Of a stretch of 64,000 bases of DNA, positions 1 to 32,589 are shown piece after piece (position 1 is the stretch's first letter; each line of letters begins with the position of its first letter). The notes under the pieces are model-generated. The model was not told the DNA's origin. It did not search any database and saw only the letters and a list, made by a program, of their open reading frames with translations. This DNA is from Balanoglossus misakiensis (taxonomy: Eukaryota; Animalia; Hemichordata): the NCBI GenBank assembly GCA_040954595.2, contig CM082581.2:6998699-7062698 (forward strand). The letters are read 5' to 3'. The position numbers were made by a program, and so were the translations under genes.

Positions 1-448
1 CTAATATGCCAAACAGATTGAAGAATTTTGAGAACAAGCTCAAGCCATCAGAGCATGTACATTACCAAGTCAGTTTATTAAAAAGTAATTTTACGTTGCA
101 TCAACTATTTCAATACTGTGCATGTACTAGTATTCACCCCTCTCAGATTTAGACCCAAGTTGAATGTTAAACTGTTCCAAGTTTTGCAAAAAAGGGCCTA
201 TTTTGTGCAAGTCATTCGGTCCATGTTAACACATTGACTAAAAGCTGTCAGCTTCACACAGTAAGGAGATACCCATAACCTTCGCACTAGTTCAAAAAAT
301 CTGATTATCCTAGAAAATTCTAAGCGTAAAAGATTGTTTGATTACATCATTTCTGCATGCATGCATGCAGAGAATAGAAGATATAGTTACAATCAGACCA
401 TAACGTTTCTCTCGCTGGTTTTATACACACAATTTCACACAAACTTAC

Positions 449-651
449 TATTTTGAAGACTCTGCAAGGTGAAATTTGTGTCTTTCCAGGAAACATCTCT
501 GAATTCCGCCATCTTTCCACACCATTCTGATCTTCTCTCTCTCATCCTGGTCGATCGGCAGACAGTACTTGCAATCCGTTATTCGGATTCCAGAACAGCA
601 ATTCCCGTTGAAGTTGTTCGATTCCATTGCACAGAGTTCATCAGACACAAA
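449..651 (-). CDS. G-alpha coding exon 3 (helical domain alphaB-alphaE, with Cys-rich insertion)
   Basis: Acceptor tgtttcaacag|TTT at 651, donor AAATA|gtaagt at 449/448; 203 nt, phase 0 to 2; encodes VWKDGGIQRCFLERHKFHLAESSKY. Confidence 0.88.
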
Positions 652-3600
652 CTGTTGAAACAGAATTTTGTACCGGGTACATGTCAGTATTTTATTGTAT
701 TTTCTTTCAAGGACAAATGTTATGAGGGACTGCAGACAAATGTATGCTTTTCCCCTTATCACCCCCACCATCACCACCAGTTCTATTCTGCTATGACAAA
801 GCAAGACTATTTAGCAAACTACTTGCACCAATTTGTCACACCAAAATAAACCCTGAGCAGCTTTTACAAGTGACATCTGGATGGTAATGAAAATTCGATG
901 AGATCCAATGATTTAGTTTCGCGAAATCTAACCAGGATTGATCGCCGAGTAACAAACTCATATCGCCACTATTCATCGTCATTACATCCTGTGTGATAAC
1001 ATTCGCCACTGAAACAGGAAGTATGAGGAAGTCGTACGCGCCGAGAGGTTGAGAAATTTTCCTCTTCTCTGCCAACTTTCGTTTCCAATTACCAGTTTAT
1101 GCACATTTCGGGAGTAATATTAAGTTTTCCCAGCAAAAGCCATAAATTCTGTCACAGCACTGCTGACAGGTTTCATGGCTTTTTCAAAAACCAATATAAT
1201 TCAAGCAGCTTAGGATGTTTCTACTGATGGACGTCGACGTTTCATAAAATGCTCCTTTTGCACCATTTGTGGGATCTTATCACAATTTTCCAGATCAATG
1301 TCTGAACAGCCAATCGAATTGAATCATTTTTGATGACAGCCAATCATTTCTGATGACAGATAATGATGACAGGAATATGCAGATAGCCCCACGCATCAAC
1401 ATATTACCTGACAGTGATTGGCTGAGTGGATTACCCCACTTCTAACACAATATAAAACCTAATTGTAACTGATCGAAAAACAGCTCGAGTTGTCACTAGC
1501 TGCAAAACTTAGACAATTACCTCAATTTCAGGATTTTCAAAGTCAATACTCAACGTCTTCATCGCACTGATGAGGATGTGAACAGCTCTGCGCACATTGA
1601 AATAGACCTGCGACTGGAACTTCATTCTCTCACACTCGGGATATCCATCCCCGTATAATATCCGTAATTGTTTGCTAAAAGTGCTCTTGCCAGATCCTGC
1701 TGAACCTGGAAAACAAAACAGACATTAATTTTCAAATTATTCAATTGTTGAGAATTTAATACTAGCAATATGTCTTGGTACAGCTGCGTTACCACAGCTA
1801 ACTTGAAGGTGAAGGTGAGTTCTTTGAAGGCGGGAACTTTTTATGATCAATGAAATGTTAGCGAAAATGCACAAACAACTTTGAGCACAGCTATACTGAC
1901 GACGTATCGTTGAGTTCACAAAAGAATTCAAAATTGCTGCTGGCACAAAATTCATCCATTGTCAATTTCATTGAAAAGACATGAAAAAAACACAGAATCA
2001 CCAATGCCATTTCAACGAAAGGTATGTTCTATAGTAATATCTGCATTTCGATCTAAAAGGTTTCATCAAAACTGGAAGCAAATACGACAAAAACATCTGC
2101 CATTTACATTTTCCCCACTGTTGGAATGATTTTCAAAAAGGTTCAAGTTTAACGTGACATTGAGGGTGCCTCGATGCATATAGGCGCTGCATTTTGAAAC
2201 GGAACACTCATGTTCAATTTCATCAAGCGTGGCCGTGAAATCTTTAATGTCCTGCAGTCTTTGTGAGCATGCAATCTTTTAGAACATTCTGTTCTATCTG
2301 AAAACAAAACCAGTTGACAGTCTGTCAGTCTCTGATGGTATGATTTCTGTAGGTGATGGACTTGGGTAATGCTGTCAAAACTAATTCACTGTGACGCACT
2401 GTTTTGCTGCCTGGATAAACAGAAGCTAGACCCTCCAAGATAAGATTTGCAATTCACTGGGAACGACTGAGTCTAAGAGGTTAATGAAAAAACACTGGGC
2501 CGGCATCAAGCCACATTAATAATTAATGTCTCTGAATTACTTTCAAGTCTCTTCAACTGGATGAAGTGACAGGCAAGAAACCTTTGAATATTAATTCACA
2601 CAGCTCCTACAAAAACGAGAGATGTCAAAATGCTGTAAGTTACAATTCATTTTCATTGTTTATTCAGTATACTAGGCCAGGCCTCTCCATTCAGTAATTG
2701 ACAATATTGAGTGTTTATCCATATTTTGACGAACGTTCTCTCAGTGTGACATTATTGAAAATAAATTTTGACAGATTATATAGTAACATTGCTGGAGTGT
2801 TTTGATGAGAGAATTTGAGTAAATTCATTATCACCTTTTACTAGCAGTATATACACACTATCACTATGGCCTGTGAGTTCTCTGATGAGTCACCAATCCT
2901 GAAAACTCCACACATCGATGGATGACACAACAATTCTCATTACTTTCAGAGTAAAAACATCTCCTTCAAGAACAAATTCTACTAACGCTGACTGACACTC
3001 CTGTCAGATACATTGCGCAGATGTGATTAAACTTAAAAAAACTTCGAAAAAAACAACAACGCATTGATTTGAAGAGCAAACTTCAAGCTAACTCTCAGAG
3101 GATGTCAGATGTCAGTCACTTCTTGCTGGAAGTAATTTCATGACATAGTAATGCCTCCAACATGAGCAATAAAATTAAATTGCATTCTATTTACCCACTG
3201 ACACAACGACACATACAACTGCATTTCTGCACTATGCTATTTTGCAAACAAGAAAACCCATAAAGCCAAAGTTCACTATGACTAAAAGCTTTACATTAAA
3301 GCCTTCCATTAAAATAATTTAAAATTTTCAAGGAGGGAATAGTGATGGAAAACAAGTTTTATCTCAATTATGGGCAACAAGTTTCTTTATAATTTCCGAC
3401 CAAAGCAGTGCAGAGGTTGAGATGGAGGAATCTAGGTCTTCCTGATGCAAACATTGCATTCTCCAGTCGAGCCGAGGTTATTTATTATAGACCCTCACTA
3501 CTTAGTAAGCTTTCAATTGAGTGAAATCAGCTACAATACAGCCAGTCCCAGTTTTACCCCGAGGCCGCCACATTTCCGGACAATTTGGCAGAACGGATTC

Positions 3601-6600
3601 CATCTACCTGCTTAAAAATATTTGTCAGGAAGCAGGGGCCGTCTAAAGCCCATTAGGTAATCTATATAGCTAATAGTTCTCTGCCAGAACCTAAATTAAT
3701 CTTCTGCTGATAGCTTAGCTCTTTGTGACTGAAATCAGAGTCATCTGTTGCACGGAATTGGTAATGTTTATGATTACAGTCTGTGCCCATTTTTGTGAAT
3801 TAATATTTTTTTCTGATGTTATTTGTTTTCTTTTAAAATAAAATTTTCTATTAGAATAGTTCTACTGGCATGTGTGTACACTACTTCCCAATGTCTTTCA
3901 TAATTTTGATTATTACACTATGCCAATATTTGCTGAAGATCTAAGAGCTGCAACAGCCTGCATTATCAAGCTGATGAATAATGAAACGTGCTAACAATGA
4001 TAACAATGATAGTATTGGGAGATTTCCAAAATTTTGTTCTGAAAATGCCCCATTCCTTTTGATTACTATACCCTTGTACATGCATGTAGCTGTTCTTCCC
4101 AGGGTCCTTATTTTTTTGGATTTGTCCTAATGTTTGCAAGAGAACACTTGGATTCGATTGCTACAGGGGGATATGGGGGTCTGAGGGTTTTCCTCAAGTT
4201 AGCTTTAATATCAATTAAAGCTGCAAGCAGCGTTGGCGGGGCACAAGCGGTTCCCATGGTGACCAGCAAATGCCAAGGCTGTATCTGCTGGGGATACCAA
4301 GTTATGGGAAAGTAGGTCACCTGAGGTCACCTGAGGTCACCCCAAAATTGGGCAAAAAAATTGGACCCCATACTAGTCTAGATCCAACAAAAAACCAGAC
4401 CCCTAGCCCTATTGGTTCGCCTACAATTAGGTATGCGCATAATTAATGAGGTATTGTGTAAGACTCCATTATGTGCTCAATCCCCATAAAAGCCAGGGCT
4501 CTAACTGCCCTGGATGCTGAGATATGGGAAAGTAGATCAAAGGTCATCCAAGGTCACCCAAAATTTGGGCATAAAATTTTGACCCCAGAGTGGGCCATGT
4601 CCAACTAAAACCAGACCTCTAGCCCTATTGGTTAGCCTGGAATTAGATATGCAGAAAAATGATGTTTCAGAAATAGGTCAAGGGTCATTGCCAAAATTAC
4701 CAAAATATTTGTGTCATGTCCTGGCAGCATTGGTACCCATGTCCACAAAATTCATGACTGTGGTGCTTTGACAAGAGGAGGTATGGGGAATATGCATATA
4801 TAATTAGTTGTTTTAAAACTAGGTCAAAGGTCATGTGAAAATTGCCCCGAAAAATTGTGACAACTTCCGGTCATATGATGACTCATATCCAAAAAAAGAA
4901 TTTCCGTGCTGTCAACATTTTGGCTACAAAACGGAATTTTCATTTTTCAATGGTTTTCCGATAATCCAACATGGCCGCCATAATGATCGACCAATCACAG
5001 TGCGCTTCGCAAACTTGATAGACATAGGTTAGGTGACCACATACCCCGAATCCCGTGACTCGGCAATCGCTGGTTCTGGAGAAGAAGATTTTTAAAGTTT
5101 TAAGTAGTTTTTCAGAAAAACAATTGTAGCAAAAAAACTTTATGTGTGACGTCATGATTTCAATGGGGTAAACTGATGGACAGAAGGTAGGCTACCTGCA
5201 CACCAAATTTGAACTCGATCGGCCCAGCAGTTTTTGAGAAGGACTCGTTTAACGATTTTCAGGAAATCCAATATGGCCGCCAGGTCACGTGACTAATTAA
5301 ATATTCACGAGCCCCTGCACGTCTACTCATTGGCCCCTATCACCCTACCAAGTTTCAGCCCCCTAGGTGCTGCGGTTTTCCAGATCTACCTGGCCGATTT
5401 TCTCGGAAGAAGAAGAATAATAATAAAGAAGAAATATTCCAACAATACCAATAGGGGCACAAGCCCGATAGGCTTGTGCCCCTAATAAAATGTAATTGTA
5501 ATACTGTACCACTATATAATGCCTATGTAATCAGACACGTGTTCAGCTAAGAAAGTCTACAACCTGAATAAATAACACTTCAAACTGATAGGTTTCAAGA
5601 CAAAATCAAAGATGTACTCTTCTTTCATCCCAAGCATCTCAATATTCATTCCATGTACCAGTATATCACATTACATGAAAACACCTCAGGTAATAAATCT
5701 AAGAAAATGTCACAGCATCATCTAGCTGGGTATCATACACTCAATCATTCAAAATGAACTTTCTAGGTTGGCCTGGAAAATTTTTAGGTCAGAAATGTGA
5801 TTTTCAAAAGAGTGATTGTGCTGACATTGGTGTACGTTTTTCACGATTTCTGAAATTTAAGACCATTGTATAGCAAAATTTTGCTCCATGGTAATGACTT
5901 CATGGCTCAATTTCTACAACTCCCAAGATATCAATTTTCAATTCATTCGCCTCAGAGCATGACATATTAGATGAATGGCCTGCATGGATTGTCAAACCAT
6001 GCCATGAAATTACACCACGCTACGTTTATGAGATAACATCCACTCTGTGGCTGTTTAAAGTATTAATTATTCTTGCTAGTACGTGTACATCTAAAGTTAC
6101 CGTATGCCTGACAATTCTGTCAGCTGTATTTCAATTTAGGTATAGCTGAGTCCGTTCAATGTCTATACCGCTGGCCTACATTTGCTTGAATAGATGATTT
6201 ATGATAAGTTTTACAATTAGCTGCCGTTTTTCTTTTTAATCTAGACTCAGTCGCTGGAAAACTTTTATTTGGATTCTGGGAAATTGTAAATTATTAAACG
6301 TATAAAATGATGCTATCCCATGCATTCCTTTCATGCTGTTCAATCTGTTTTGATTATAACAGATACCCTCTCATTCATTTTGAACAAGAGTGATCAGACG
6401 TACCATATTTTCTTATGAACAAAAATCATGCCCTTAAGGAATTGAAAATGGGTGTGAAAATTGCTTGAGTTGTTGGGAATTATTTCACTGGGTGATAAAT
6501 CATAAAATCTCGGTAAAATACTACCACTGCTACATGAAATATCTTTCAGTCTAAACACAAGGGCAAAATGAGTGCTGTGTATATCTGTCGGGGTGTGTGT

Positions 6601-9600
6601 TTAAAGTGGGAATATATCAAGAATTCAAATCAACTGCTTGCCATCTGGCAAGATCTATCACACAGCACATCACTTTTGTAATTATGGTTAAAGCCTGCAG
6701 CTAACTGGATAATACTGCGAATAAAAGTGATGGGAATTGCGTTACCGTATGCCACGGTACAATTTCATGTCATTTTGTTCTTCCTGAAAAAACTCTTCAC
6801 TGAAACCCACTGACTGAACTAAAGCAACTGTATTCATATACACAAGTTTCACACATAAGATTATCAAAATTAGTTACATTCCACAGTATTTCTATTTTGC
6901 CATTAAAATGGTGAAAATATGCCTTCAAATCTACACGTCATTCATTTACGTACGTCATTAATTTAGCATGCAGTGAGCAAATTGCTACCTAAAAAGTACA
7001 TGACATGCAGAAACTATTAAGTGAATTCGTATCATGTATCATGTTTATAGAAATACGTATTTATGATACAATTCGCACAAAGTACATGTACCTTGTGAAG
7101 ATAATGAAGATAAATAAATGCTTGTACATTGAGTGGTTTAACTGCATATAGATTCTATGATTAATTGGATAATACAGTTGTAAAAAATATAGCCTTCGCT
7201 AATGCTGGGAAAATGGTATCTATGGCAACAGAACAGAATATGGTACCATAGATTGATTAATAAGATTATTTCTGCACTTGAGAGGGTGAGAGAGATGAGG
7301 GGATTATATTGGTCAAGTTTGAATTATATGCTTTAACCCTGTCAACCCAGTTCCCTCTCCAGAGGTCAACTTTACCATAGAAAACAATGGCTTTGGACCA
7401 AACCATGGTGGTGAAATTGTAGTGTTCACAGCATCAATGAATTTCAGAGTTTGGTCAACATTCTTGTACATTCTACTGCACTGTACTACAACAAAGTTTT
7501 GGCATGTAAAGACTACTAAGAGTTCAAAACACCTTGTTTAAAATTTGAACAGAGAATTTCCAATGTGTTGACAGAGGCATATACGTCCAGTAATTATCAC
7601 AATCATGCTTGAAAATTACTGCACTGTACGTCGCACATTAAGAGCCCCAAGTTCCTTTTAATCCTTAATTTTGAAATTCTGAGATTGGTTGCACTCTAAT
7701 TTAAGTGTCTGCATTGCTTGATTTAGCCTCCTGCTACTTTTGCACAGAGAAAATAATGAACCCTCTCTGTTTCACTGCTTTGCCCCTTTTTTGCCACGAA
7801 AAGAAATACCTGAACAGGAAGGAGAATAATGGCAGTAATTCTTTGCAAAAGGTTCATCAAGGCCATCGAAATCATTTCAGCACTTGGCAACAACGCACAC
7901 TACACACATTAAAGGAATGTGTTTTTTGGCGAAAACAAATATAATTCAATTAATAACAGTACTCAGCAACGGTTGGAAATGTACCACTGGCACTAAGTAT
8001 GTTTTTATTTTTTTATTTTAACAAATAAACGCGATACATGAAAGATGGCAATTGCTTTGTAACAGGATTCATCAGTGCCCTGGCAATGTGTTACAGCATG
8101 TGCCTTCTGCCAAGGCAACGTCAGCAGGAAAGAAATTAAGCCGCCTTGTTATTGTGAGGTAGACGATACATGACAGCTCGAATTACGAATGCAAAATTTG
8201 CATACGCCATAATTATATGCACGCTAGTCCCCATACATGCGATGCACTATATGTTAAAACAGACTCGTCACTTCAAACTGTGATAATCTTGGTGTCGCGG
8301 AATGCACAGAAATGGTAATCTTGCTTCTCTACTAGTGTAACGCACACCGTAAATTTAAATAAACGCCCCAGTACACTGAAAGCCACTTGACAGGAGAAAG
8401 CTGAGAAGGTCGTAGAACCTGCCAGTCAGCCATAATTTAGTCATTAAACTGAAAATCGAACGCTGAAATGTTTGACTAGTCGCAGTTGCAGCTGGATTGA
8501 CGTGGGGTCGATTGAGGTCGCGACGCTCATGGTTACAAAACAAACTTGTTCGAAATCTACATTTTTCTGTTGACGCAATTTAAGCGATTTCTTCAGGGAA
8601 TTCCCTCCCTTTTTAAAAAAAACTCTGGCCTCAACTTCGTGCTAATGATTTTTACCGTGGCCAAATCTGATAAACAACACACTTATAAGAGCCCTTGAAT
8701 ATTAATTCCTTGTGGGCTGGCTGCCATTTCAATTCAGCTGTTTGTGATTAACTCGCCTACTTGTGAAGAGCCCAGACATTTACATTGTAACTTCACAGGC
8801 ACAATGGTTTAAACTTTTTAGAAAGATGGAAAAAGGAACAGTGAATTTTTCTATTTTGCCCAAAACTGTTATTCTACCATCTAAAGTTCCCAAACTAACA
8901 CAGAAACACAGAAATAGTTTGAATCTTGCTAAAAATATAACATGGGAATTTCATCTGAAGAGATTCGTTTGACTCGAAGTAATGTTTAATCTAATTCAAC
9001 TCGCAGAGTTTTTTTCATCAGTTAAAAAAAATTGCGACTTGTAACCTAATCATGGATATTGAACGTGTGTATAGAGAGACCTGTGAGCCTCTATCACTCG
9101 TAAATGATTGGAAAATTGCGCGCCCTACCTTAAAATTCGACTGATTTCACCGACAGCTGCCTTGATAAAGTTTGGTACTCAATCACGTATCACTTCATGA
9201 GCATCAAAATAAAAAGAGTCATTTCTTCTCATATAATCTCCCGGTATAATCTCTGGACAGATCTAGGCTCATTACTTAATACTTCAGGATTTAACCGATG
9301 ACATCCAGAATGCAGCAATGAAAACTGTGCCATTTCTAGTGACAATGTATCTATTACAATCATTTTACAACTCAACACATATCATTTCACATCTACACCC
9401 AGATGATCCTTCGTAATATCTCAACAACAACTCTGTTCAGACACTGAATTGAACAGATTAGCAGAATTCGCCGAGAAATTTTCAAATTTCAGCTGATATG
9501 CCCCCCAAAATACGTTCTCAATTTAACGACAGATAATGACATTTCAGACCGTTCATGATCCATCTAATTCCATCAATGGTGCAAAGAGAGCTGGCGTAAT

Positions 9601-12600
9601 GACCGGGTCATCCAATTAAAAGTGTCGTGCCTTGGCAACTGCACAGGCCGGCGACAAACTCGGAGGCTCAGGATGGGGTTGCCATAATCGACAATTGAGA
9701 ACGGAACGGAAAAGTTACTTAACGAAGGCTGATTGAATATAGTAATCAGGCCGCATGTCAGCTCACAACAATGCAGTTTCTAATGGAGTTCATTTCATCA
9801 AATCCATCCATTGTGAAGGGAATCTATATGCAAACTAATGGACTCTGAACTCTTATTGATAGAGACTGCAGTTCAGTGATGAGTTAAGAGGAAAATGGTA
9901 CACGGAAAGCTCACAGCCATACATGCTGGAAGGATTTTATATAAACACGGTCTGGGCCTTCTTACTATTCTAAAATCCCATAGGATTTCAAACAATATTG
10001 TTTGTAGTTTTCAAAATTACATACACGCTGCTGTTTACAACATCAATTTGCATATATGAATGTCACGACCGAGATATACTTTGCCAGACATCATAATAAA
10101 CATACACACACAACATGCAATTGCACGCAAATTATTGAATTAGCAATGGACAAAAAACGTCATAAAAAGGGATCTTTATTTGCACAAACTGTGCAGTATA
10201 ACTACATGTACACATACTGCTTTTGAAAAGTGTAATACTTCAAAGAAACAGCTCAACTCTGATAAATGTTTGATATGTCAGCTATAAATAAAAGAAGAAA
10301 CATTATAAAAGATTATCATCATCCTAATTTCCCAATTACATTAGACAGTCTTCATTTATTTTTAAATATTTTATGGGTTTCTCATCTATTACGCATTCCC
10401 TGTGCAACAGTAATGATACATCTGTGCATAAACTGAATGCTGTTCATCTCTCATTATGTGTATTTGGACATCATTAAGTGCAGCTACGTCCATGTACCTT
10501 GGTTATCATTAATGATTGTCGGCAAGCGATTACTTGTTTGGGTGTAGAAGAAGAGACATCCTGGAATAATGGAATGAATGTTGTAGTCTTATATTCCAGC
10601 AAGTACATGTGTAATATATACAAGGGCAAGAACAGAGACAGACAAGATGCATGTGCACATGCACACGCGCACACATAGGCACACAAGCGCACACGCACAG
10701 ACACACAGACTACCCGTACTTTACCCTCTGCATGATTCATCTAAGCCATCCCACGCGAGACACAGCAAAATCTGTCTAAAAAGCCACAGGCAGGCATTGT
10801 TGCAACACTGACTTATAAATCAGCCATTCCACATAATGCTCGTATCAAACATTCCGCCCCTCAAATCCCAAATCACCCAAGTGAAACCCGAGATTTACAC
10901 AAATGCATTCGTCAAATTCACTGGAGTGAATTAAATCAAAAATATTTATCATTGTCAGGGAGGGAAGACGCAGTGATTTGAATCAAGAGGCACATTAGTT
11001 AAATCCCTCCATGATATATGGGATTAAACTGACTTGCACCTAATATGGACAAATGGTCTCTCAAAGAACGGGCGCTACTTTTGACACGAGGGAAACCATC
11101 ATATAATAGATGGAGAGTAAAAGCCTGTAGGATCCGGGATATCTACTTTTGAGAAAATTTCTCTTCTGTCGAGTCCTGACTTTAAAAGCTGTCAAAGACT
11201 CAGTGACAATTAGTCCAATGGCTAGAAAAAAATCAGCCAATTCTTTCAGAGTGCAATTAACCAAGATTCTAATGGAGAAAATCCATTTGAAACCACATTA
11301 GAGGAATACTTCTTTACTGCATGGTTTAAAAGAAAGTAATGCACATTCAAAAATAGGAAGACCTTTAAAGAGACACTATCTGCAACTTTTGGTTATTTAT
11401 TTTTTTGAGTATTTTTTCCTCTCTAAAATACTTAAATTTTCCAGACAAATTCTGAAAAGGCAGAAGCTATACTGACACAAGAAACTTAAGCAAAAAACGA
11501 CACACTCCTGTGTACCTTCTCTGACATCTTGATTGACATTCACGCACCAAGTCTTGAACTTTTGTGCATTTCACCGCACATCAAAAGGTACCACCGTGAA
11601 TTCTGAACACGTAGCATGTACACCCTGATTGCGCACCATCTGACCAGCCATGAATGCTTAAGTCACTTTAGAAAGCTATAAATTCCACACAAAGTGGTTT
11701 TTCTTTTTCCTCCATCTATTTTTAGGCACAGCGCGTTCACTTTAGCTGCAGGATGTTTTAAAATTGAACCATCTCGCATTGTCACAGTTTGGCAGTGGGG
11801 GGTCCTGGATGAGCACACAAGAGGTGTCACCTGAGGCCCTGGATTTTCACACCAAACGCCTTAAGCATCTACATCTTTCAATTTCCTGTGACTTTCTTTC
11901 GCGACTTTCTTGGAATGGTTATGTTTTCTATAAGCTTTGACACACTGCCTTGATGAACGACATATACTGTCAACAACATACTAACCCCCTTGTAACATCA
12001 CAGTAGCGGAAGGACGCATTATTATGTCGTCAAAGTTTCATGGTACGTAGGGTTTTACCTCTACATTTGTGAAAGCTGTTAATGGTCTGACTGATACGTC
12101 AGAATGAATCTGAGCTATAACTTGATCACTTTTATGGGTCATGAAGTATCGCTGTTAGAAGCTTCCACATTCAAGAACAGCTTGTTTCTAACACTTTCCC
12201 TGTCTTTCACCCCCCCCCCCCCCCCAGGTCCCTTTTTACAGGACCAACCTTACCATAGAAAACAATGGGTTTGGACTGAACCATTGTGAAAGAGTTTTAT
12301 AATGACTGTCAGTGCCAACAGCTAAGCACATATAACTGGTAGAGACAGATGCAGCTGATGTCGACATTGACGCTGATTCATCACGAGGTCATAAAATGGT
12401 GTCAGGTGAGAATCTTTGGGTTGTGTACGTGCAGGCATGCATGCATCTTCAAAGAAAAAATTAAGCACAATTTACCCTTATTTCCAGTCTACACCTGAAT
12501 GTAAAATAATTACAATACAACATCTACAAAAATCCAAACAATTTCAGAATTTTAGAAAACACTTATTGGTTACTCAGAAATTCCCACATTCCTTTTGATT

Positions 12601-15600
12601 ATCAATTGTTGCTTTAGTTTCACTGTATTTAGAAAAAAATTTATGCTGAGACATGCAGTATCTAAAATCGTAAAAATGATTCCTTTTGTATTTATATAAA
12701 GAGTTGACGAATTTCCATGTGATAAATCTCTAATCTGAAGCAGCAAAAAAATGCGCTGTCACGTGTATTCATTCACTTGTAATTGTAACTCAATCAACCT
12801 GTCAGACCGTTCGACGATGACAACTCGAGAGTGCTCAACCATGCGGAGAATGGCTCTGTGATGATGATGGCTCGGACTGGCTGTACAGAGCCTCGCTAAT
12901 GCACGAGAGACATGTTTCAGCTTACAGCTTATTAGAGAGAGACTGAAACCACAGGCCTCAGCTAGCAGAGAGAGTAATATACCCCTGGGATAAAGCTCAA
13001 AACTCGGTCACAGGCTGTTCGGCCAGCCGAGAGCACTATAGCCCAGAGAGTGATGTCAGAGAGTGGAAGACAGAAGTCGAACGAATTAAAATTTTATCTG
13101 GGACAAGCAATTTTCCATCAGCTATACACATATATCATGAAATGTTCCGCATGCCTTATGTATATACCAATCAATTTATAAAATGGGTATTCTTGGAGGG
13201 TGTGTTCACATATTTATTTGCAGAAATATAAAAATTGGCAGTAATCCGTACAGTTAAGGGTGTAATTGGAAAACTACAACTATGTACATTGAATATTTGA
13301 ATATATTTAGATTAATTGTCTGTTTTTGGCTGAATTTTGGATTGTAACAACAGCACAGCATGTTCGAGTCAACTTGTAATAGAGTAATGTCTGAAGACAT
13401 ACAGACAAAAAGACGTATGATCTGACAAAAATTATATGACATGCTGACAGGGAGGAGGGCATACATTCTCTCGTGCTCAGGGAAATAAAAACAGAACTCT
13501 TGGGATTTGCAATAAAGGACATTTTATATTCCGTCTTTACGAGGCAATGACCTGGAGGGACTTGCAGTCGATTGTAAAATATTCAATACATGCTCTCAAT
13601 GAATAACTGACTGATATCCAGGCATCATGGGAAATGTATTTTTGAAGCAGGGTACTGCAGGTTGGAACACAATTAATTCCTGAACTTCAGGGAACGTCAA
13701 GTTCCGGAAATACCTGTCAGTTGGAAATAATCCGACCTGGTTCTTGTTGATTTGGGTTTGATGGGCCTATTTGATCAGGAAATTAACTTGGGAATCAATT
13801 AGGTTGTAGGCCAAGGAGAGAAAAAAGTATTGTTCCTTGCATTTGGGAGGGGGAAAGAAAAGAGGTGGTGACCAATCTTTGCCCTCTCCCCCCAACCAGT
13901 ACCAGTAAAAATTCACATGTGAAGCTGTTTGTTTGGAATTGCAGCAAACACAGCAGTCAAGTCGACGCTGAGAGAGACCCCTATAATATGAGGTTTCAAT
14001 GTTAAGGCAGAGGACAGCCGATATTGCTCTATCTTCTGACAATCTGACTATAGGTATACTTTCCACAAAAGTAATTACTCTGTTTGGCCCTTATCACAAG
14101 CAAGGTGATTTCCCAAAGGGATCAGTATAGGATGAAACATTGATTCTTTAATGGTCCACTTCCCATACTTCCGTGACACACACAAACACATGCAGACATC
14201 ATAACTGTCACATGACCTTTCAATGTGACTGGTAATAGATGTCTACCACAGGAAAGTATGACATAAAGTACGACCAACGGATTTTATAAACAGATCGAGA
14301 CATATCCATACGTCAGAGATGTGAACAAATCACTACTAACAGTTAAAGTACAGGGTCTAAGAATGTCTGTATTAAAGTTGCACCTGTTATGCACCTGTTT
14401 CAGGACTGCAATGACCAATCAGAAGTAACACAGTCTTCAAAAAGTGGCAAAGAGCAAAGAGCGAGCTATACATGTACTCCTTGCATGGTTTCTGTTCTAT
14501 CTTAATTCTGGTAGTTGACCACATCATATTTTTAACTGCACCAAACTATACGATTTAAATGTTTAATGCAGCAAAAGAACTATACTCTTTTCTATTCATG
14601 TGCTCTTGCAGCTGTGGTTTTAGTACAACAATATACAGCAATATTTTAGTTTATAAATTTCACTATATTTTCAATCTTGCACCCTATGCATTATACATTA
14701 TTCATGGCCCCTCGCTAAGTCGCGGCCCTCGTTAAGTCGCGGTTTTCCCGATGGACCCCGCCACCCGCGACTTAGCGAGGGTCTACTGTATTCGTCATGT
14801 TACGAAACTTGCCCATTATGATTTAAATACCTTGCTGCCACACAAGAGTCAATTAATTTAACAAATCGTACAGAACATTAGATGTCTGGAAGAACTGTTG
14901 AAGTCGCTATGGTTACTATTGAAAACAGTTGCCCTCCTGGAGGTCCTCCCACACACATTTTGGTCAATTACGTCAATTTGGACGCCAACTGATTGGCTGA
15001 TTAATTGGATAATATGCTGCTTCCCCGGGTTGGGAATGTTAGAATATATTCAAGAACTGAAACATTTTCCCCCGTTTCATAAAATTAGTCTGAGTAAAAA
15101 TATTTACTTCGTGTGCCATTGCTAACAAAGCTTTTTTGACGCTTAATGAGTTGACAGACACATTTCTGTGATTGCCTGATGCCGAATTATATCAACTTGT
15201 TCGGAGCAATTTCTAGAGCTACTTTAGCGAGTGTCAAAGTGATTTGAGTTTTCCATTAATAAAATGACAGATAAATCTTATTTGAAAAAAAAACATCAAA
15301 TGACATTCTTGTCACTTCACCGAGACCTGCAAGTCACAGTGGCCTACAAACCCTGAGGCAAAGTTTGTGTCCATTATAGCATTGGAATGCTCGTCAAACA
15401 TACGTCAAACATAATGATAGGCAGCTCAGAGTCACGCTCCTTGTAACCAACAATTTTCATATGCACAGTCAGGATTTCTCCTTGTCCTTTGCTTGAATTT
15501 GCATCGTAAATTCACAAGTCACTGTGAGTGACCCTTAGTATTTCAGCTTCTGTGTCTCTGAATTTTCCTAAAATATCCTATGGATTTTAATAGTATCTCT

Positions 15601-18600
15601 GAGATTTCCACAAAACAAAACAACTTAGCCTGTATTTGTTTCATTATCCAAACTGAGTTTGTACATGTTATTCATCTAAAAAAGTATGCGCCTACTCACA
15701 GGTATATTGGCATGCATGCATGGTGCCTTTTTACCTCGCGAACAAAGTGAACCTCAGCAAGGACAAGTGAAGTTAACTTTAACCTTGGCAACTTTGGATT
15801 CTCTCACACACATCACGACTACAGCAATACTGGTACATGACGTGTCATACTTTCTATCAGTAAAAAGTCAATGGCAGGAACACAATAGAAGCCCACTTTG
15901 GTTGTCGCGTGACAAATTAGCTCCATGAGTTACTGTTCAGGACGACTTCACAATTCACTAAAAATGCCCAAAAAGCTTTTCCACAATGGTGTTCAATAAA
16001 CCATCATTGGACAATGATTATTTTATGATGCATTCAATTGAAAACTCTTCCTTAATATCACTGGGTTTTATACGCGTCATTCAAGGAAACAAAAAATTCC
16101 TGTTATGATGTGTCATAATTAAATTTCATTAGATATTCTGATGCAATGAAAGTTGACTTTTATGTGGCACTGTCTATTACAAGATAGATTCATTGGGTGT
16201 CAAACATGGCCTACAGATCATTTACAACATTTATAATGGTCTCCTCGCTTCTGTTATTTAATGTTTTTTAAGGCTTTTGTTGAAAACACTGTTAGCTAAC
16301 TTCTGTGTGATCGTGGTTATTTGAGTTTTGAGCAGGCGAGGAGAGGCAGGCATATAATATTAGTGTTATAAAAAGAATTTAAATTCCACCTTGGTCACGT
16401 AAAACTTTGAAATTGCATTTCTGCAGACACTTTGCTATCAGTATCAACATGTCATAATGATACAATTTAATACTTATTTGTCCCCACAGACATAGTCCAC
16501 GGGAGGGGGGGGGGGGGTATTGGGTGATATGACTGCAAATCTGTGCGTCTGTAGCGTAATACTTGACTTGCTCGGACTAATTTCTTCATATATGCATGTC
16601 AATTTTGTTTTGAGATCTGATCCAATACAGCTACCAGTAAAAAAGCAGTCAAAAGTTAAAGATAGTGGAGCTTTAATACAAGTGTTCTGTATCATTATAT
16701 TTTCATCACCCATGATGCCTCCCATCTCTGAGATACAACCACACAGCGTGTCGTAACTATAGAGTTTTTACAGACGATTAATTTTTTGTCAAATTTTCAG
16801 AGGTGGAAAATTCACTGGTGTGGAAATGGTGATTAAGTGTATTTTTAGCCGGGGTCAAAATACGGATCTGAATCACATTCGCAACAACATGTACAACACT
16901 TCAGCTCAAACCTTAATAATTGGGTAGATGTAACGAAAATTAAGAATTTTATTTCAGTACCTGACTTATGTTATGTGGTTCCAATAAAATGCTTTGGAAA
17001 AACTGGATAGGTAGGAGATTATAAATTCTTTAATTTAAATTCAACCCTTATTCCTTCATAAATGACTTGAAGGTCGGGTTATTGGAACCACACAATTATT
17101 TTGTTTGCTTAACATCCGTGACTAGTCCATGTTGGAGAAAGTCTCGATGATTCTCAGTGGATTGAGGACGACCCCATATCATTGGCTGTTAGCAATATGA
17201 ATTATGGTTCTACATGTATGATAAGAGAGAGGGATAATGCAACTTATGAAAGCAGACACCAATACATCACTTTGTATTCTTTAATCCTCAGTAAATTTGA
17301 AAAGGAAACAGAACTGAGAAATAGCCTTCGAGCAACAACTTTGCAAAATTCGATAACCGTAGATCTTACTGGTACAATAAACGCATCTTCTTTTCTTGAA
17401 ATACCTATAACCTCGCATTCGGTTGATACATTCTGGAAACATAAATGAATTGGAGCTCTTTCCAGTGCAAACTTTATCGTTTCATGCATTTGGGAGTTTT
17501 GCCACACTGCACGTTGTCATGGTGACCAGCCGTAGAGGTGTCACTGGGCCTAGCCTGCAGAATTGATTGCCCAGATGCTTTTGTTCAAAAGGTTCACGAA
17601 TCAATTTGGTATCAATATTGCCGCGCGTAATAGGGCGAGGAAACTTGGCATTTTCCCATTTTCACGAATAAACAGGTATGAAACCTACGTGTCAAATCAG
17701 CGACGCTTTGAATGAAACATTTTCTCCGTCATTTTCCACCTGAGTGAAAAAACAGGCCATATGTGCAGGATACAGTGACAAAAGCGTTCCTATCATTCCG
17801 TTAAAACTCGTGTTATTTCGCCTGGTGATGACGAAAATGATAATATTCAACGTCGCGTTTTGAATGCAAGTTTTCAAACATGAATGCCGGGATCGGTTTC
17901 ACCTCTGAGGAATTCGTCAATTAATCACCGTGATAGCGTACGGCCAGCTTTAAAATGTAGGATTATGACTCAACGTTTCAAAATAGCTTTGCGCCCAATT
18001 ATACTCAGCTGATGTACGTTTGAGCCTAATCCCAGCATTCTGCAAAATAATTAGGCCAGCAGGACCTATATTTACGGTTGTTCCAAGGTTCAACGGATCA
18101 TATCTTTCTTCTTCAACAGGTTGGCTTAACTTGTATCATGTGTATTGAAGTGGGGAATGAGTCGTTGTTTTCCATATAACTGTCAGAGAACGTAGTACCC
18201 CAAATAAAACAGAAGCCGCACCATTGTTAGGGCACAAAAGCACTCTGTTATAATGTTTAAATAATACAAGCCTACTATAAAACCGTATTGCTTCTGAGAG
18301 GAATTTTACAAATATGATAGTTTTTGTCAAGCCCTTCACTAACCTCAATATTTTCTACCAATACAAACTTGTCATGTACAATATAGTGACCTTGTAGGAT
18401 ATACTTATATTAGTAACCAGCCTAAAATTACAATTTTTAGGCCTGGAATTCATCTGCATTATAGATCATCAAAACTATCACTTGACAGGTCAATGCCGCC
18501 CGGATGTTTTACATACTGGCTTCCTGTAAAAAATGTAATTCCAAGAACAGATCTGATGTGTAATTAACATTTTCTGAATGACTGCTGGTCCAATTCTCTT

Positions 18601-21600
18601 GACATTTGGTCACATGCAAACAAATGACAATAGTTCCTGGTGTTACATTTCAAGAAAAGGAAACAAGAATTGAAATGGGAACAATAACTCATTATGACAC
18701 AGCTGGAACACTGTTCTCTTTTTCTAGAATGTGATCACTGTTTAATACCAGAATGAAATAGTATACAGTTCACCTATGGTTTTAGTGCAATGACATATGA
18801 GTCAAAGCTTTGTACTGCCCTCTAGGCCACCACCGACGCAAAAAAAAAACTCTCCACTGACTCAGTTTTCATCCTACAGGTTGTGGAATATTAATATCAG
18901 GCTACTTCAAAAATTCCTCAAACCAATCCAGACATGAACTGAGCAATGTTCACATAATTTGATAAAAATGTGAAGATGAGCAGTAAATTGTCAGGAAACT
19001 CACTGTTGTCTTTCAGTGCCACTAGTCTTGATTATAAAGTCCTGCAGAAATAAATAGCCACATATTACAGCAAATGCCCCTTTAAGGCCGGGCAGCTATT
19101 TTCTTCCCTTTATAAACAAGAGATTCAGCATTGGATGCAAATTTAATCATCGACTATAACTTAATGTCCCTTTAATATATAGATATCATGGCTTGTGGTA
19201 AAATGACCCAGTAAAATGTATTTGGCAAAAATATTTACACCCTTAGGCCTTTCTCTGTATGTGAGCTACACATTTACAAATCAATATTCTGCGTGTATGG
19301 AGACTTGACAATCAAATTTCATCTCTCATAATGCAATCTGCAACGGCTATTATTTGACTGAAACAGTCCCCATTAATAGAACAGCTATTTGGTCACAGCT
19401 GGATGATCGTGTCAATATTTATTTTCTTCTTGCGTCTGTGACAGTGCTGTATACAGACGCAATAAACAAATTTGTACAAAGACGCACAAAAATGACACAA
19501 TTATGAAGAATAAATTGACCGAAATACTTCTACTTCAGCGATAATCTCTTTCAGATGTGTCCTTCTCACATAAACTAGTCCACATGTTTCCTTCCCATAA
19601 CAAAATGTATTGGGATTTATAATTACATCAAAGAATGCAATAAAAAAGTGTCTTTCGAATGTGTTTAGTTGGATTGTTTCATTTGATGGAGGCTATTTAT
19701 CTTATCTTTAGAGGTCCGAGTTTGCCATAGAAAACAATGGATTTGGAACAAACCATGTCAGTGAAAAGTAAAATATTAATTAATGCCACAGAATGAAGGT
19801 TATTTACTGACCTCATGTTGCCCAGCTTATAGCGCCTAATTTTCTTGCGACATAAATTGGCAATTATGTCAGTGTTTCCTCATACTACCGGTACATTTAA
19901 CAATATCCTGCTTTTATGCACCAATCACCAATAATCAATGGCCAATGATGTTCAATATCGACACACAAATTTTCTGCTCTTAGTTTTAGTTTTTGGTTAA
20001 TATGTATTTTACTATTTTATGTGTTTTCAATTACCAGCCAAGGTATTTTTCTGATTGTACATTTCTCTGACAAATATTAGCTTTTAAGTATTAACAATAT
20101 CATAAAAAGTGTTCCCCATACGGTGTGGTTGAAATGTATACATCAAACTATATTCCTATTTACTCAATTCGAATTGCCTCCTAAGTTGTTATTTCTAAAC
20201 CCAGACGCTTAATACACAGTATTACAGACAGGACTATAAACAGAATACATCTTTCCAAACCCTTTGTTGTGCTTACATTGGTAGAGTTAATGGAAATGCC
20301 ACACGTGAGAATACTCGCGCACAATTTTACAAAATTGAAAAATACTGTTATCGTTATGGTGACTGTAATTTGAATATTAGGTAAATAGCGTACAATCCTT
20401 TAACATTCCTCTATACCGATACTGTGTCACCGAGACCTCCATGGGTCGAGTTAAGCTTTTTCTGTATAAAACACTTTTTTTCATGCTAATACACAAAAAA
20501 GTGCCGACATTATATTAAGAAATCCTTTTCTATCTAATTCTCTGCAAGACGTGTGTACACTCACAATGGAACTGTGTTGTTGCTATGGAACAATACTGAA
20601 AGTTGTTTCTAATACATATCATTCATAGGAATTAGTATTCATTTTACATGGCTCCTGAAGATCCACAGCGTGCATATTCAGTTCCCAATTGAAATTTTAT
20701 GCCAGTTTGAAGTGATTGGCCCCATAAATTTCCATTATAAAAGCCTTATGAAAATGTTATTTTGTTAAAATGTTATTTTGTCAAAGGCAGTGAGACTCGA
20801 CTTCCTAAAAAAAATCAATACATTTCTGTTTTATAAACTATGAAAACTAGTCTGTTACTTTTCTCTACAACCAACAGCATTTACACTGAAAATTTAAAGT
20901 GTCAATAATAGAACAACCATGTGCATGTTTATCAATGCAAGAATACAGAGTAGAACATTATAAACTGTGGTTGTTATACCAGGTAGGGTAGAAGAGAAAA
21001 AGAATGGAAACAACATCTAAAAAGAGAGACTGTGCGACAACCCAGTAAAATGTTCTATTTCATCAACATCATCAACAGCCCCAAAAGCACACACTACTAT
21101 AACCTCACGTACCCATCACAGAACTTAAAACAGATGGTTCAATATGAGCCAGTTAAATTGAGTAACTACGACAACAGCTTGTGAGCAAATACGGGGATAA
21201 GACACCAAGCACGCACACATTTGAAACACACTGTTAATTATAACCGTTACACTATTCTCCCAATGAGAATAATAAGACGCAAGTGGATAGTTGAGACAGA
21301 GTGCGTGTTGAGCAAAGAATACGGTTACAGCAAACTTGTCATCAACCATGTGTGAAATGCTACACCCTTGGAAATTAAGTTAGTCGCAAACACAGCTAGA
21401 TCTGAATTCAATCCAACATGTATAAACAGTAAGCAAATGACACTTTACATGTCGATCTCTTTACGATTTGTGAGTGTGTGAAATCCGGTCATTATTGAAC
21501 ACTGCACAATGCATCGCACACTCTCCATCCAGTCGCTGGCGCATCTCTGTCAACACGTTCGATGGCTCCGATGAATTGTGTGCGAGGCATATAAAAGGTC

Positions 21601-24600
21601 TCCAGAAGATGACCTCGGCCAGCCACATTTACAGGTTGACGGAGCTCGAACCAGCGGGATCACGCATGATGAAACGCGGCCAAGCTGATATCTCACTCCC
21701 CCCCCCCCCCCCCCCCCCCCCCGAAGTTGATGAGATAATTCCCTCGGCTGTGACAAATGCCAAATTACCGTAAATTAGCGACTTACATGAGACATCCTGT
21801 GATCAGCGTGTATTTTCAGGCCAAGATGTCCTCTGCTGCTGCGCGCTGGGGATTGAAATCATCCCAAATTGCACATTTATACAGAAATGCAGATAATGCA
21901 AGATCGCAGTTTCCTGCCATTCCTGTTGATAGAAGCCAGTGGGAAAACCGCATGCATTTATCGAATCCTTCCGACGGGTTAATTCGGACAGGGTTCATTC
22001 ACTTGAACTGAATTTGATTTCATGGAACGTAGAAATGATTTATTTCCTGATCGACTGCACGATACAGCCATATAGTTCAAAGAAAATAATCTTTGAGAGT
22101 TAATGTTACTGATGTACATATACAGCAGCTTTACTCATTCTTGAGGCAAAAAAAAAAATTCTATCCCTTCTTGGGTCCAATCTTGAAACCCTATAAAAAT
22201 TCACTTCACTATATACACTTTAACAAAGAAGTACCCGCACAATGCTAATGTGTCATTAAAATTATAATATTGGAAATTTTAAGAATTTATCAAACCGACT
22301 GGAGTATCAATTCAATCAGTGTATGGACAGCGAATTAATTTTTTAATCATTTATCAAAGACCCTTGTGAAAATGTTTTTTTGTCAGACAATCAGGCTATT
22401 GGAATTCTGGTCAGAGCCCAGTGCTTACCCATCGCTGCTAACAGGGCCATAAATCTCAAGTCTCTATTACATTTTGTGTAAGTAGCTGTGCTCATCGATA
22501 ATTACAAGTCTGTTAGATTCCGAGCCACCTTGTCCATCTTGAACACCAAAGTGGCATTTGCATACAGCACTGTCTATGTAGCGACTGAAAATTAGTTTTT
22601 TTAATGAACACTGAGAAAAAAACTGAGGCCATATAATATCACTACAGACATCAGACTGTGATTCCCTTTAAGGCAGAACGCACCTTGAAAATTACAGTCT
22701 TAAACTGTTTCTCATATTTTGCTTAAGGCAAGTTGAGATACCTCTCCTTAAATTGAGAATGAAAATTGGGGTCGATCACCGTGCAAAATATTGAATGAGA
22801 GAGTAAAATTGTCTCAAATCTGAAAATCAAAATGGCCACCAATTTCTGTGTAACTCTATGGAAAGTTGTGATTTTTAATAAAAACAAGATGGCGAACACC
22901 CTCTTCTTCTTAATTGTATTTCCCTCAAAATCTCCTCACACACTCTAATATAGCAAAGAATTGAAAGCTTTGGAGGACTTTAAATTTTTTCTGAAAATCT
23001 GTCCCTGAGGCACAAGACTACTTTAATACCGAAAGCCTATGCTCTCCTCGTAGCCGTCTGTTTTTATTGCTCCGATATTTCATGTTTACAGATAGTCTAA
23101 CTGTGAGAATTACCATTTTCTGGGAAGCTCTTTAAGTCTATATTACAGTCTTTACAAAAACATCTAATGCCCACTCCAGAAGATCTGTAATACCACTGAC
23201 CCAAACATGAAGCAATGATTTTTTTTTATTTTCAATGAGAGGAGATTAATTTTTTTACTGTCAAACACGAGAAGATGAAAATAGCGTTGGGGATTGTGCA
23301 GACCCTTCAAAACCCTGGCAGTCAAAGCTGTTTATATTTCAATTCATATTATCTATTCATAACAGAATCTATTCATTTTAATTCACCAGATAGTGACAGC
23401 TTAGGAACAGCTTTTTTGAATGGCAGCCATTAAGGTAATGTACCCCTTGTAATCTCCGAGGCAATGAGAGTCATACCTCCACGGGCAAAAGTGTTCGGCT
23501 TCATTGAAATTTGAGAGCTCTCTCTCTCAATTGAAAATGTGTTTTGTATGGCGAATGTCCAAATGATATCGCTTATAAATGCAATATTATACTGTGTACA
23601 CATTTTTTGTGGCACGCAATTTATACCTCAAGACTTTGCAAGTATGAAGAGTATAGAAGCAATTTTGTGTCTTCATTGTGGAATACTACAATCTCAGACC
23701 CACGCTCAAGGAACCTGGATAAGATTTCTCACACGAGTTGCGGGGATATTCTGTTTAACACGAGTGTGAAACAAATATTCCCTAACAAGTGTGAGAATTT
23801 TAACACAAGGCACTTAGTGTGACGTGTGAAGTTCTTTTTCTCACATGACCACAACAAGTAAATTTGCGCTAACAGCACTGAATTATCGACCGCATGACTC
23901 TCGTCTGGCAAGCTGTATTTCCTGTCTGCGTACTTGTACACATCCTGTTGTTGGATAACATTTCAGTATACTCATGTTAGGTAACACTTTCAAGTCTGTG
24001 AAAGTGTACATGGGACTGACTGCATCCCACATTGTCAATCCAACAAACTCCCAGCGGTCAAGAATGTGAGAATTATTTCATATTCCCTGTAGTCCTTATT
24101 TTCTATGTTGACAGAACTGCGTTTATAATTAAAGCAATTGTTTGCTTGATACATGTGCCGATAGATAAAACATCACACCTGATAAATTTCACTCCATCAA
24201 TGATTGACAACTTTGTCTGACATCCATGTGCGAACATTGTGTACATGTCTTCCCAAGCATTCATGCAAGAAGGTGCAGTACGACTTGGGTCTAATAAAAG
24301 CCCTTTCACCACCATGGTTTGTCCAAATTTATTGTTTTCTATGGTAAAGTTGGACCTCTAAAGAGGGAAATGGGGGTGACGGGGTTAAAGTTCAGAGCAA
24401 AGCCTTCACGTTGTGCCTTTGAGCAGTACACTCTACTTCCTATTGCTTCTCCGTTTACCCAGGAGCATGTGGGTACTTCAGCCTGTAAATGGGTCTGACA
24501 TACCAGTACATTGTATTTCTTGTGAATCTAATTGGTACGACTAACGATTTTATCATGCACTGCACACACACTTCACCATTAAGCCATTCAAGTTTGAAAA

Positions 24601-32268: not shown

Positions 32269-32589
32269 TGTCAGCACTCATTCACAAATGGGCGATTCCT
32301 CTGCATTCACGCAATGGATCCTATAATACACCACTTCTCAAGTTCCACTAGCAGAGAGTGACTGCATGTACAGATCGGTCCCAATCTATTCTTGACTACC
32401 TTGAGCTTGTTTACATGTCAGTGTCAGCTGTGGCCTCAGTCATGAAGTATACATGTACAACTCTCCTTCCCAGTCAGTGGTTTAACCTGCTAAAAAATAA
32501 AAAATAAAGTTTCAAACACCACTTTCAGGCTTTACTTCACATAAAAATATAAAATGGTTAGCTTTATTTCAACATATTCATATATTCAA

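What the first reader, a model, noticed from the sequence alone, without database searches (positions are those of the whole stretch)
1521..1705. G-alpha subunit with a non-canonical P-loop (GSAGSGKST)
Seen: the spliced P-loop reads LLTLG-SAGSGKST. Known: animal G-alpha subunits almost always have GAGESGKS (Gi/Gs/G12) or GTGESGKS (Gq). The third residue is equivalent to Ras Gly12/Gi1 Gly42, and the following Glu salt-bridges to the switch I Arg; Gz, with GTSNSGKS, is a slow GTPase. Here these positions are Ala and Gly, and KQMKIIH has become KQLRILY. Inference: an atypical G-alpha outside the standard Gs/Gi/Gq/G12/Gv classes, possibly with altered GDP release or GTP hydrolysis.
Basis: partly seen in the sequence, partly recalled or inferred. 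Interest (0 to 1): 0.8.

Follow-up and report, generated by a model that had tools for sequence, protein, structure and literature searches.

The report
Sixth-class G protein missing nucleotide latch
This gene, likely from an acorn worm, encodes a G-protein alpha subunit of a little-studied sixth animal class (G-alpha-VI, also called Gc or G-alpha-a) whose sampled members all lack the glutamate and arginine that latch the nucleotide in other G proteins, so they likely release GDP more easily, which is untested.

Summary
They are 145 of 166 identical to a Ptychodera flava protein that has the same loop. The rest of the gene lies outside the window. The gene is no one-off: it nests (100/100) in a clade with Acropora Gc, Lymnaea G-alpha-a and the Nematostella gene, i.e. 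G-alpha-VI of a 2023 preprint, which knew no deuterostome member except amphioxus. Not found in my searches: across 53 clade proteins the P-loop Glu43 (0 of 52) and its switch III partner Arg242 (0 of 53) are gone, Glu245 is always Asp and Glu207 is lost. Catalytic Arg178 (50 of 52) and Gln204 (53 of 53) stay. This contradicts the preprint's 'GXGESGKS retained'. Most likely it is a working, receptor-triggered, unlipidated GTPase switch with looser GDP binding; I found no kinetic data. Ala42 alone is not special (zebrafish Gv has it). No earlier scan finding matched the Ptychodera protein. Verdict: new member of a known, barely studied class.

The parts
32157..32268 (-). Coding exon 1 (112 nt): start Met, basic alphaN helix without Gly2 or Cys, beta1 strand, first base of the P-loop Gly codon
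   Evidence: 38 of 38 residues identical to Ptychodera and Glandiceps proteins; in-frame TGA four codons upstream of the ATG
32269..32486 (-). Probable 5' untranslated part of the same exon (inferred), holding six upstream ATGs
   Evidence: pyrimidine tract and AG at 32488-32487; ATG list; no transcript seen
1706..32156 (-). Intron 1, 30,451 nt, GT...AG, phase 1, splitting the first P-loop Gly codon
   Evidence: joined form present in orthologues
1521..1705 (-). Exon 2 (185 nt): P-loop, alpha1 and alphaA; unsplit as in Gq-type genes
   Evidence: Pfam PF00503 E 1.2e-12; two Branchiostoma isoforms diverge after the same 61 residues
1680..1703 (-). P-loop codons SAGSGKST: Ala at Gi1 position 42, Gly at position 43
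   Evidence: same loop in P0001, P0002, P0003 and in none of 168 control G-alphas
652..1520 (-). Intron 2, 869 nt, GT...AG, phase 0
449..651 (-). Exon 3 (203 nt): helical domain to just before alphaE; Glu at Gi1 position Asp150
   Evidence: 58 of 67 residues identical to Ptychodera; Pfam G-alpha E 0.005
562..633 (-). Five-cysteine stretch in the helical domain, part of a 16-residue insert relative to Gq
   Evidence: 5 Cys here, in Ptychodera and in Glandiceps, 2 in Branchiostoma; 16 gap positions against Gq; pLDDT under 50 at residues 116-124 of the Ptychodera model
1..448 (-). Start of intron 3; exons for switch I-III, G4, G5 and the C-terminus lie beyond the window's left end
   Evidence: donor GTAAGT; no further tblastn match; no genome held

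Best explanation
The three exons encode the N-terminal half of a G-alpha-VI (Gc / G-alpha-a) subunit, likely from an acorn worm, that likely works as a receptor-triggered GDP/GTP switch with intact catalysis and is predicted to release GDP more easily than Gi or Gq because the class lacks the Glu43-Arg242 latch. Shown: exon structure, open frame, class membership, and the class-wide residue pattern in orthologues. Inferred from orthologues: the unseen half of this gene keeps Arg178, Thr181, Gln204, NKxD and TCAT, and reads DVAGQ. Inferred from human mutants: in Gi1, Glu43 holds Arg178 in the GDP state and passes to Arg242 on GTP binding; G-alpha-VI lost Glu43 and Arg242, changed Glu245 to Asp and mostly lost Asp150, so its switches would be coupled by other contacts and GDP would be held less tightly. 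With no Gly2 or N-terminal Cys it would reach the membrane through G-beta-gamma and its basic alphaN helix. Receptor and effector are unknown; a coral orthologue was activated by an opsin in vitro. Class membership about 0.95; working switch about 0.85; faster GDP release about 0.55.
For: Tree of 73 rows: the window is sister to P. flava (100/90) in a deuterostome group (98/89) inside a 28-row clade (100/100) that holds Acropora palmata 'alpha c' AFZ78087, Lymnaea 'alpha-a' CAA87631 and the Nematostella gene. The clade stays at SH-aLRT 100 with P-loop, G3 and alpha3 columns removed (62 rows). Tally, 53 clade vs 168 control proteins: Glu43 0 of 52 vs 155 of 165; Arg242 0 of 53 vs 165 of 168; Glu245 0 of 53 (Asp in all) vs 166 of 168; Glu207 0 of 53 vs 160 of 168; Arg178 50 of 52; Gln204 and Arg208 53 of 53. 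Asp150 is kept in 9 of 52 vs 156 of 167 (alignment less sure there). Relay Arg178-Glu43-Arg242 and triad Gly203-Arg208-Glu245: bioRxiv 2020.11.15.383679, passage. Go R243H and D151N speed GDP release, and Gi3 D150N does so about 20-fold (PMC5322562); Gs R265H, the Arg242 site, shows faster GTP uptake (PMC12423288). Coral Gc became trypsin-resistant with GTPgammaS and light-activated acropsin 1 (PMC3515558). AlphaFold model of the Ptychodera orthologue: pLDDT 84, two-domain G-alpha fold.
Against: I found no kinetic data for any member. Single mutations in human proteins need not predict a class that has had about 600 million years (recalled age) to compensate. Coral Gc gave no stable product in the dark, so basal exchange cannot be very fast under those conditions (100 uM GDP, 10 uM GTPgammaS, 5 min). 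The 53 proteins are kin, so the joint loss may be one event. Among controls, 8 of the 10 that lack Glu43 keep Arg242, so the two losses are not obligately linked. The window's own switch regions were not seen. The tree had no Gs, no confirmed Gv, and G12 only as four N-terminal fragments.
Confidence: 0.55

Rival explanations
1. Same class, ordinary kinetics: the lost contacts are compensated, and the odd P-loop is a neutral class signature.
For: Coral Gc, which lacks Glu43 and Arg242, needed light and an opsin to reach the GTPgammaS-protected state. Catalytic and guanine-binding residues are conserved. Unnamed protist-like G-alphas also carry Gly at position 43. Positions 41-44 vary freely within the class.
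Against: Loss of Arg242 or Asp150 changes nucleotide handling in three human G-alphas. Asp245 is invariant in 53 of 53, which looks selected rather than neutral.
Confidence: 0.22
2. Gz-like slow GTPase: Ala42, with Ala202 and loss of Glu207, hinders Gln204 and gives a long-lived GTP state.
For: Gi1 G42V is GTPase-deficient by crowding Gln204 (PMC3285607). 39 of 52 clade members have Ala, Pro or Ser at 42. The Aplysia and Pomacea models carry Cys or His at the Arg178 position.
Against: G42R keeps normal hydrolysis. Zebrafish Gv has Ala42. 13 of 52 members keep Gly42. Arg178 and Gln204 are kept in the acorn-worm orthologues. Gi1 G202A is recalled to hydrolyse faster, not slower (recalled; not confirmed).
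Confidence: 0.12
3. Self-activating switch: GDP leaves without a receptor, the protein rests in the GTP state, and an RGS-type GAP or G-beta-gamma sets the signal, as recalled for Arabidopsis GPA1.
For: Three brakes on GDP release (Glu43, Arg242, mostly Asp150) are absent together. There are no acylation sites.
Against: No dark, receptor-free activation of coral Gc was seen in the one published assay. Gs R265H fails to activate adenylyl cyclase despite fast exchange.
Confidence: 0.08
4. A diverged Gv or Gq paralogue rather than a separate class, or a pseudogene.
For: Best PDB matches are Gq, and exon 2 is unsplit as in Gq genes. No confirmed Gv was in the tree. Downstream exons were not seen.
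Against: The clade is separate from Gq at 100/100. Gv keeps Glu43 and two acylation sites. The frame has 166 codons without a stop, canonical splice sites and 87% identity to Ptychodera.
Confidence: 0.05

Closest known systems
G-alpha-VI (Hansen, Payne, McCulloch, bioRxiv 10.1101/2023.09.14.557824; abstract, passages and the G-alpha section read; supplements closed)
   Same: Same clade: anthozoans, spiralians, Branchiostoma.
   Different: The preprint found no deuterostome member but Branchiostoma; here are three acorn-worm-type members (window, Ptychodera, Glandiceps). It says the P-loop GXGESGKS is retained, but the Nematostella protein reads GSGNSGKST and 0 of 52 members have the Glu.
Gc of Acropora palmata (AFZ78087; Mason et al. 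2012, PMC3515558; abstract and passages read)
   Same: Same clade; no N-terminal Gly or Cys; no Glu43 or Arg242; Asp245.
   Different: Gc keeps Gly42 and DVGGQ (GAGCSGKTT); the acorn-worm proteins have Ala42, Gly43 and DVAGQ, plus a five-Cys helical insert; about 46% identity to the Ptychodera protein.
G-alpha-a of Lymnaea stagnalis (CAA87631; Knol et al. 1995, J Biol Chem, recalled only, not held)
   Same: Same clade; deviant P-loop, DVAGQ and no acylation site, which that paper is recalled to have pointed out.
   Different: P-loop GGPGAGKST; longer helical-domain insert without the Cys cluster; 42% identity.
Vertebrate Gq/11 (best solved relatives, e.g. PDB 2BCJ, 4GNK)
   Same: Fold, about 39-40% identity, unsplit exon 2, Pro at position 180.
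   Different: Gq keeps Glu43, Gly202, Glu207, Arg242, Glu245 and N-terminal Cys; separate clade.
Gv (zebrafish gnav1; PMC11087313, passages read)
   Same: Ala at position 42; an ancient class that tetrapods lack.
   Different: Gv keeps Glu43 (GAAESGK) and has myristoylation and palmitoylation sites.

Membership tests
G-alpha-VI / Gc / G-alpha-a | Falls in one well-supported clade with Acropora Gc and the Nematostella gene, apart from other classes | tested here: met
   100/100, one clade in 100% of 200 bootstrap trees; SH-aLRT 100 without the trait columns. That P0032 is the preprint's gene is inferred from species and clade.
G-alpha-VI / Gc / G-alpha-a | No N-terminal Gly or Cys for myristoylation or palmitoylation (noted for Gc) | tested here: met
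   Window: no Gly2, no Cys in the first 32 residues; Gly2 in 0 of 51 members, Cys within 20 residues in 2 of 51.
G-alpha-VI / Gc / G-alpha-a | Activation by a GPCR (opsin, for coral Gc) | not testable with these tools
   Shown only for A. palmata Gc by trypsin protection.
Canonical G-alpha (Gi/Go/Gq/G12/Gs) | P-loop GXGESGKS (the generic motif that the preprint also lists for G-alpha-VI) | tested here: not met
   Window GSAGSGKST. The Nematostella and Acropora type proteins fail it too, so it cannot define G-alpha-VI.
G-alpha superfamily (PF00503) | GxxxxGKS/T P-loop followed by a helical domain | tested here: met
   model and fold search on the orthologue
G-alpha superfamily (PF00503) | Switch I Arg/Thr, DxxGQ, NKxD, TCAT | tested here: inconclusive
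   Exons outside the window; all present in the 87%-identical Ptychodera protein and in Glandiceps.
Gq class | Groups with Gq/11/14 and keeps GTGESGKS | tested here: not met
   Gq rows form their own clade, 98/91.
Gi/Go class | Groups with Gi/Go/Gt; Gly2 myristoylation; intron inside the exon 2/3 segment | tested here: not met
G12 class | Groups with G12/13 | tested here: not met
   Against four N-terminal G12-like fragments only (one, P0174, labelled by PDB matches); separate clade.
Gv class | P-loop GAAESGK with Glu43, and N-terminal acylation sites | tested here: not met
Gv class | Tree placement with curated Gv sequences | not tested
   No confirmed Gv sequence came back from any search; Lokits supplement not held.
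Gs class | Tree placement with Gs | not tested
   No Gs sequence in hand; no chain named Gs among the best 60 of 353 PDB matches; the preprint's tree separates them.

The most novel reading that the evidence does not exclude
G-alpha-VI is an ancient animal class that switches without the Glu43-Arg178-Arg242 relay proposed as universal, is unlipidated, and loads GTP by itself, so that GTP hydrolysis or G-beta-gamma, not the receptor, limits its signal. Some gastropod members may even be natural GTPase-dead forms (Cys or His at the Arg178 position), and the acorn-worm form adds a cysteine-rich, possibly metal- or lipid-binding loop.
Probability: 0.12. Interest if true: 0.78.

Novelty: new member of a known kind. 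Interest (0 to 1): 0.45.

Why it matters
It extends the sixth animal G-alpha class to hemichordates, so the class was likely in the deuterostome ancestor and lost later in vertebrates and others. It ties three separately named proteins (G-alpha-a, Gc, G-alpha-VI) into one orthologue group that databases label as Gq-, Go-, Gi-, Gt- or G12-like. It also gives biochemists a natural test: a whole class without Glu43 and Arg242, whose loss causes disease in human Go and Gs, and which sit in a relay proposed as universal for G-protein activation.

Tried and rejected
No genome is held, so downstream exons could not be read. No RNA run was listed for 449-1705; this says nothing about expression, and no reads were laid. 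The search of 50%-identity representatives with exon 2 gave mostly single-exon fragments and no Gs or Gv outgroup. The metagenome scan gave 80 loci; their full-length ORFs were Gi, Go, Gq, fungal-like or protist-like, none a clade member and none recognisably Gs, G12 or Gv. The Lokits 2018 supplement is held as 145 characters, so I could not see whether that study had this gene. The preprint's supplementary tree is closed and may already hold the Lymnaea protein, although 'Lymnaea' occurs 0 times in its text. The 1995 Lymnaea paper was not found. Searches for E43A/G42A data (0 papers) and G202A kinetics gave nothing usable. A frameshifted longer N-terminus was considered because of upstream ATGs and rejected: both acorn-worm orthologues start at the same Met. 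Earlier-scan look-ups by sequence, words and nearby place gave no matching finding. No complex prediction was run, as no partner is known. The fold search shows only the general G-alpha fold.

Full report
Observation. On the minus strand, 1705-1521 is a 185-nt exon between a pyrimidine-rich AG acceptor and a GT donor, reading SAGSGKSTFSKQLRILY.... The preceding coding exon lies 30,451 nt upstream at 32268-32157 and ends LLTL plus the first base of a Gly codon. Together they give 166 codons without a stop. Exon 2 matches Pfam G-alpha at E 1.2e-12. tblastn with six G-alpha queries finds only these three exons in the window. The rest of the gene is off the left end and no genome is held.

Orthologues. 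Exon 2 retrieved 9 proteins among 21 candidates: Ptychodera flava (80%), Glandiceps talaboti (75%), Branchiostoma (64%) and coral sequences (53%). The three deuterostome proteins read LLTLGSAGSGKST unbroken, which confirms the long splice. The window is 145 of 166 identical to Ptychodera and 127 of 166 to Glandiceps, so the source is likely an acorn worm (inference). A search with the full Ptychodera protein and with a 37-sequence profile returned a group from anthozoans, molluscs, annelids, brachiopods, a nemertean, amphioxus and acorn worms. In one search these scored 425-625 bits against at most 378 for other G-alphas, except six long models (454-605 aa, 33-37% identity; probably repeated segments, not checked). 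No named vertebrate, echinoderm or ecdysozoan member was among the 120 listed, though echinoderm Gi and Go were; this is weak evidence of absence. Cluster look-up named two members: Acropora palmata 'alpha c G protein' AFZ78087 and Lymnaea 'G protein alpha-a' CAA87631.

Tree. 73 rows, IQ-TREE LG+C20+F+G4: the window is sister to Ptychodera (100/90), then Glandiceps (100/100), then Branchiostoma (98/89), inside a 28-row clade (100/100) with cnidarian and spiralian subgroups. Gq (98/91), Go (100/97) and G12-like fragments (100/100) are separate. With the P-loop, G3 and alpha3 columns dropped, a 62-row quick tree keeps the clade at SH-aLRT 100. Limits: 27 of about 55 clade proteins were used, the window fills 42% of columns, there was no Gs and no confirmed Gv, and G12 was four half-length fragments (one labelled).

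What is known. The class is G-alpha-VI of bioRxiv 10.1101/2023.09.14.557824 (abstract, passages and section read). That preprint equates it with coral Gc, reports anthozoan, spiralian and one Branchiostoma member and 'no results' for any other deuterostome, and says the P-loop GXGESGKS is retained. Mason et al. 2012 (PMC3515558, passages) showed that Gc lacks N-terminal Gly and Cys and becomes trypsin-resistant with GTPgammaS only when acropsin 1 is lit. A 1995 paper on Lymnaea G-alpha-a is recalled to have noted its atypical nucleotide-binding motifs; I could not obtain it. The term G-alpha-VI occurred in 1 of the 16 papers listed. Lokits et al. 2018 (PMC5896119, passages) recognise five classes; their sequences could not be checked. 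Zebrafish Gv reads GAAESGK and is acylated (PMC11087313, passages), so Gv shares Ala42 but not the loss of Glu43.

Class signature. I aligned 53 clade proteins with 168 other G-alphas (110 proteins, 58 metagenome ORFs), numbering by a gustducin row. The clade proteins were chosen by score and motif; three redundant or partial isoforms and all sequences outside 300-470 aa were dropped. Glu43: 0 of 52 vs 155 of 165. Gly42: 13 of 52 vs 163 of 165. Arg242: 0 of 53 vs 165 of 168. Glu245: Asp in 53 of 53 vs Glu in 166 of 168. Glu207: 0 of 53 vs 160 of 168. Gly202: 10 of 53 (Ala in 41) vs 168 of 168. Kept: Arg178 50 of 52, Thr181 52 of 52, Gln204 and Arg208 53 of 53, Lys270 52 of 53, Asp272 52 of 52, Ala326 53 of 53. 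Asp150 is kept in 9 of 52 vs 156 of 167; the window has Glu. Gly2 occurs in 0 of 51. The Nematostella protein reads GSGNSGKST and Acropora Gc GAGCSGKTT, against the preprint's statement. These are related sequences, so the pattern may be one ancestral event. Among controls, 8 of the 10 lacking Glu43 keep Arg242, so the losses are not obligately coupled. I found no description of this joint pattern in ten searches; the library lacks most subscription journals.

Mechanism. In Gi1, GTP pulls Arg178 off Glu43, Glu43 binds Arg242, and the Gly203-Arg208-Glu245 triad forms (bioRxiv 10.1101/2020.11.15.383679, one passage). Go R243H and D151N speed GDP release, and Gi3 D150N does so about 20-fold (PMC5322562, passages). 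Gs R265H takes up GTP faster yet fails to activate adenylyl cyclase (PMC12423288 and PMC11325797, passages). G-alpha-VI lacks this relay but keeps both catalytic residues, so I favour a working GTPase with looser GDP binding and rewired switch coupling (inferred). Against a strong effect: coral Gc was not activated in the dark. The Gz-like slow-hydrolysis idea is weaker: G42V is GTPase-deficient but G42R is not (PMC3285607, passages), and Gly42 is kept in a quarter of the class. With no acylation site, membrane binding likely rests on G-beta-gamma and nine Lys/Arg in the first 32 residues, though seven acidic residues offset them. An AlphaFold model of the Ptychodera protein (pLDDT 84, pTM 0.79) has the usual two-domain fold with a low-confidence Cys-rich loop. 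PMC9884665 and PMC5022103 (passages) added nothing on this class.

Verdict. A real, apparently intact gene; a new acorn-worm-type member of a named but almost unstudied class. The range extension is modest, since predicted Ptychodera and Glandiceps proteins are already public under wrong names. The class-wide loss of the Glu43/Arg242 relay is the part a specialist would want tested. Interest 0.45.

Noticed in passing
P0062 (Aplysia californica) and P0047 (Pomacea canaliculata), switch I: These G-alpha-VI models have Cys and His at the catalytic Arg178 position, the same substitutions as the activating Gs R201C and R201H (recalled). Could be real GTPase-poor forms or sequence errors.
   Followed up: partly
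window 44600-45829, minus strand: Single-exon rhodopsin-family GPCR (Pfam 7tm_1 E 2.6e-59), about 12 kb upstream of the G-alpha gene on the same strand; looks somatostatin/allatostatin-C-receptor-like (recalled). No evidence of a functional link.
   Followed up: partly
window about 38163-40995, plus strand: Several exons of a gene with an armadillo-like part and a GLLGG...HSxG-type hydrolase part, resembling SERAC1 (recalled; weak Pfam hits only), head-to-head with the G-alpha gene.
   Followed up: no
window 51095-52258, plus strand: 388-codon GC-rich open frame with hydrophobic and acidic stretches and no Pfam match.
   Followed up: no
window 32269-32486, minus strand: Six upstream ATGs precede the start codon in the probable 5' untranslated region, which may damp translation.
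   Followed up: no
P0082, P0114, P0124, L049, L062, L067: Unnamed protist-like G-alphas read GAGGSGKS, a separate Glu43-to-Gly change; P0124 has also lost Arg242.
   Followed up: partly
P0013 (unnamed, 362 aa): A G-alpha-VI that branches outside the named spiralian group and shares His207 with acorn worms; may come from a further phylum.
   Followed up: no
window about 31850-32150, minus strand: Short imperfect repeats with G and A runs at the start of intron 1.
   Followed up: no
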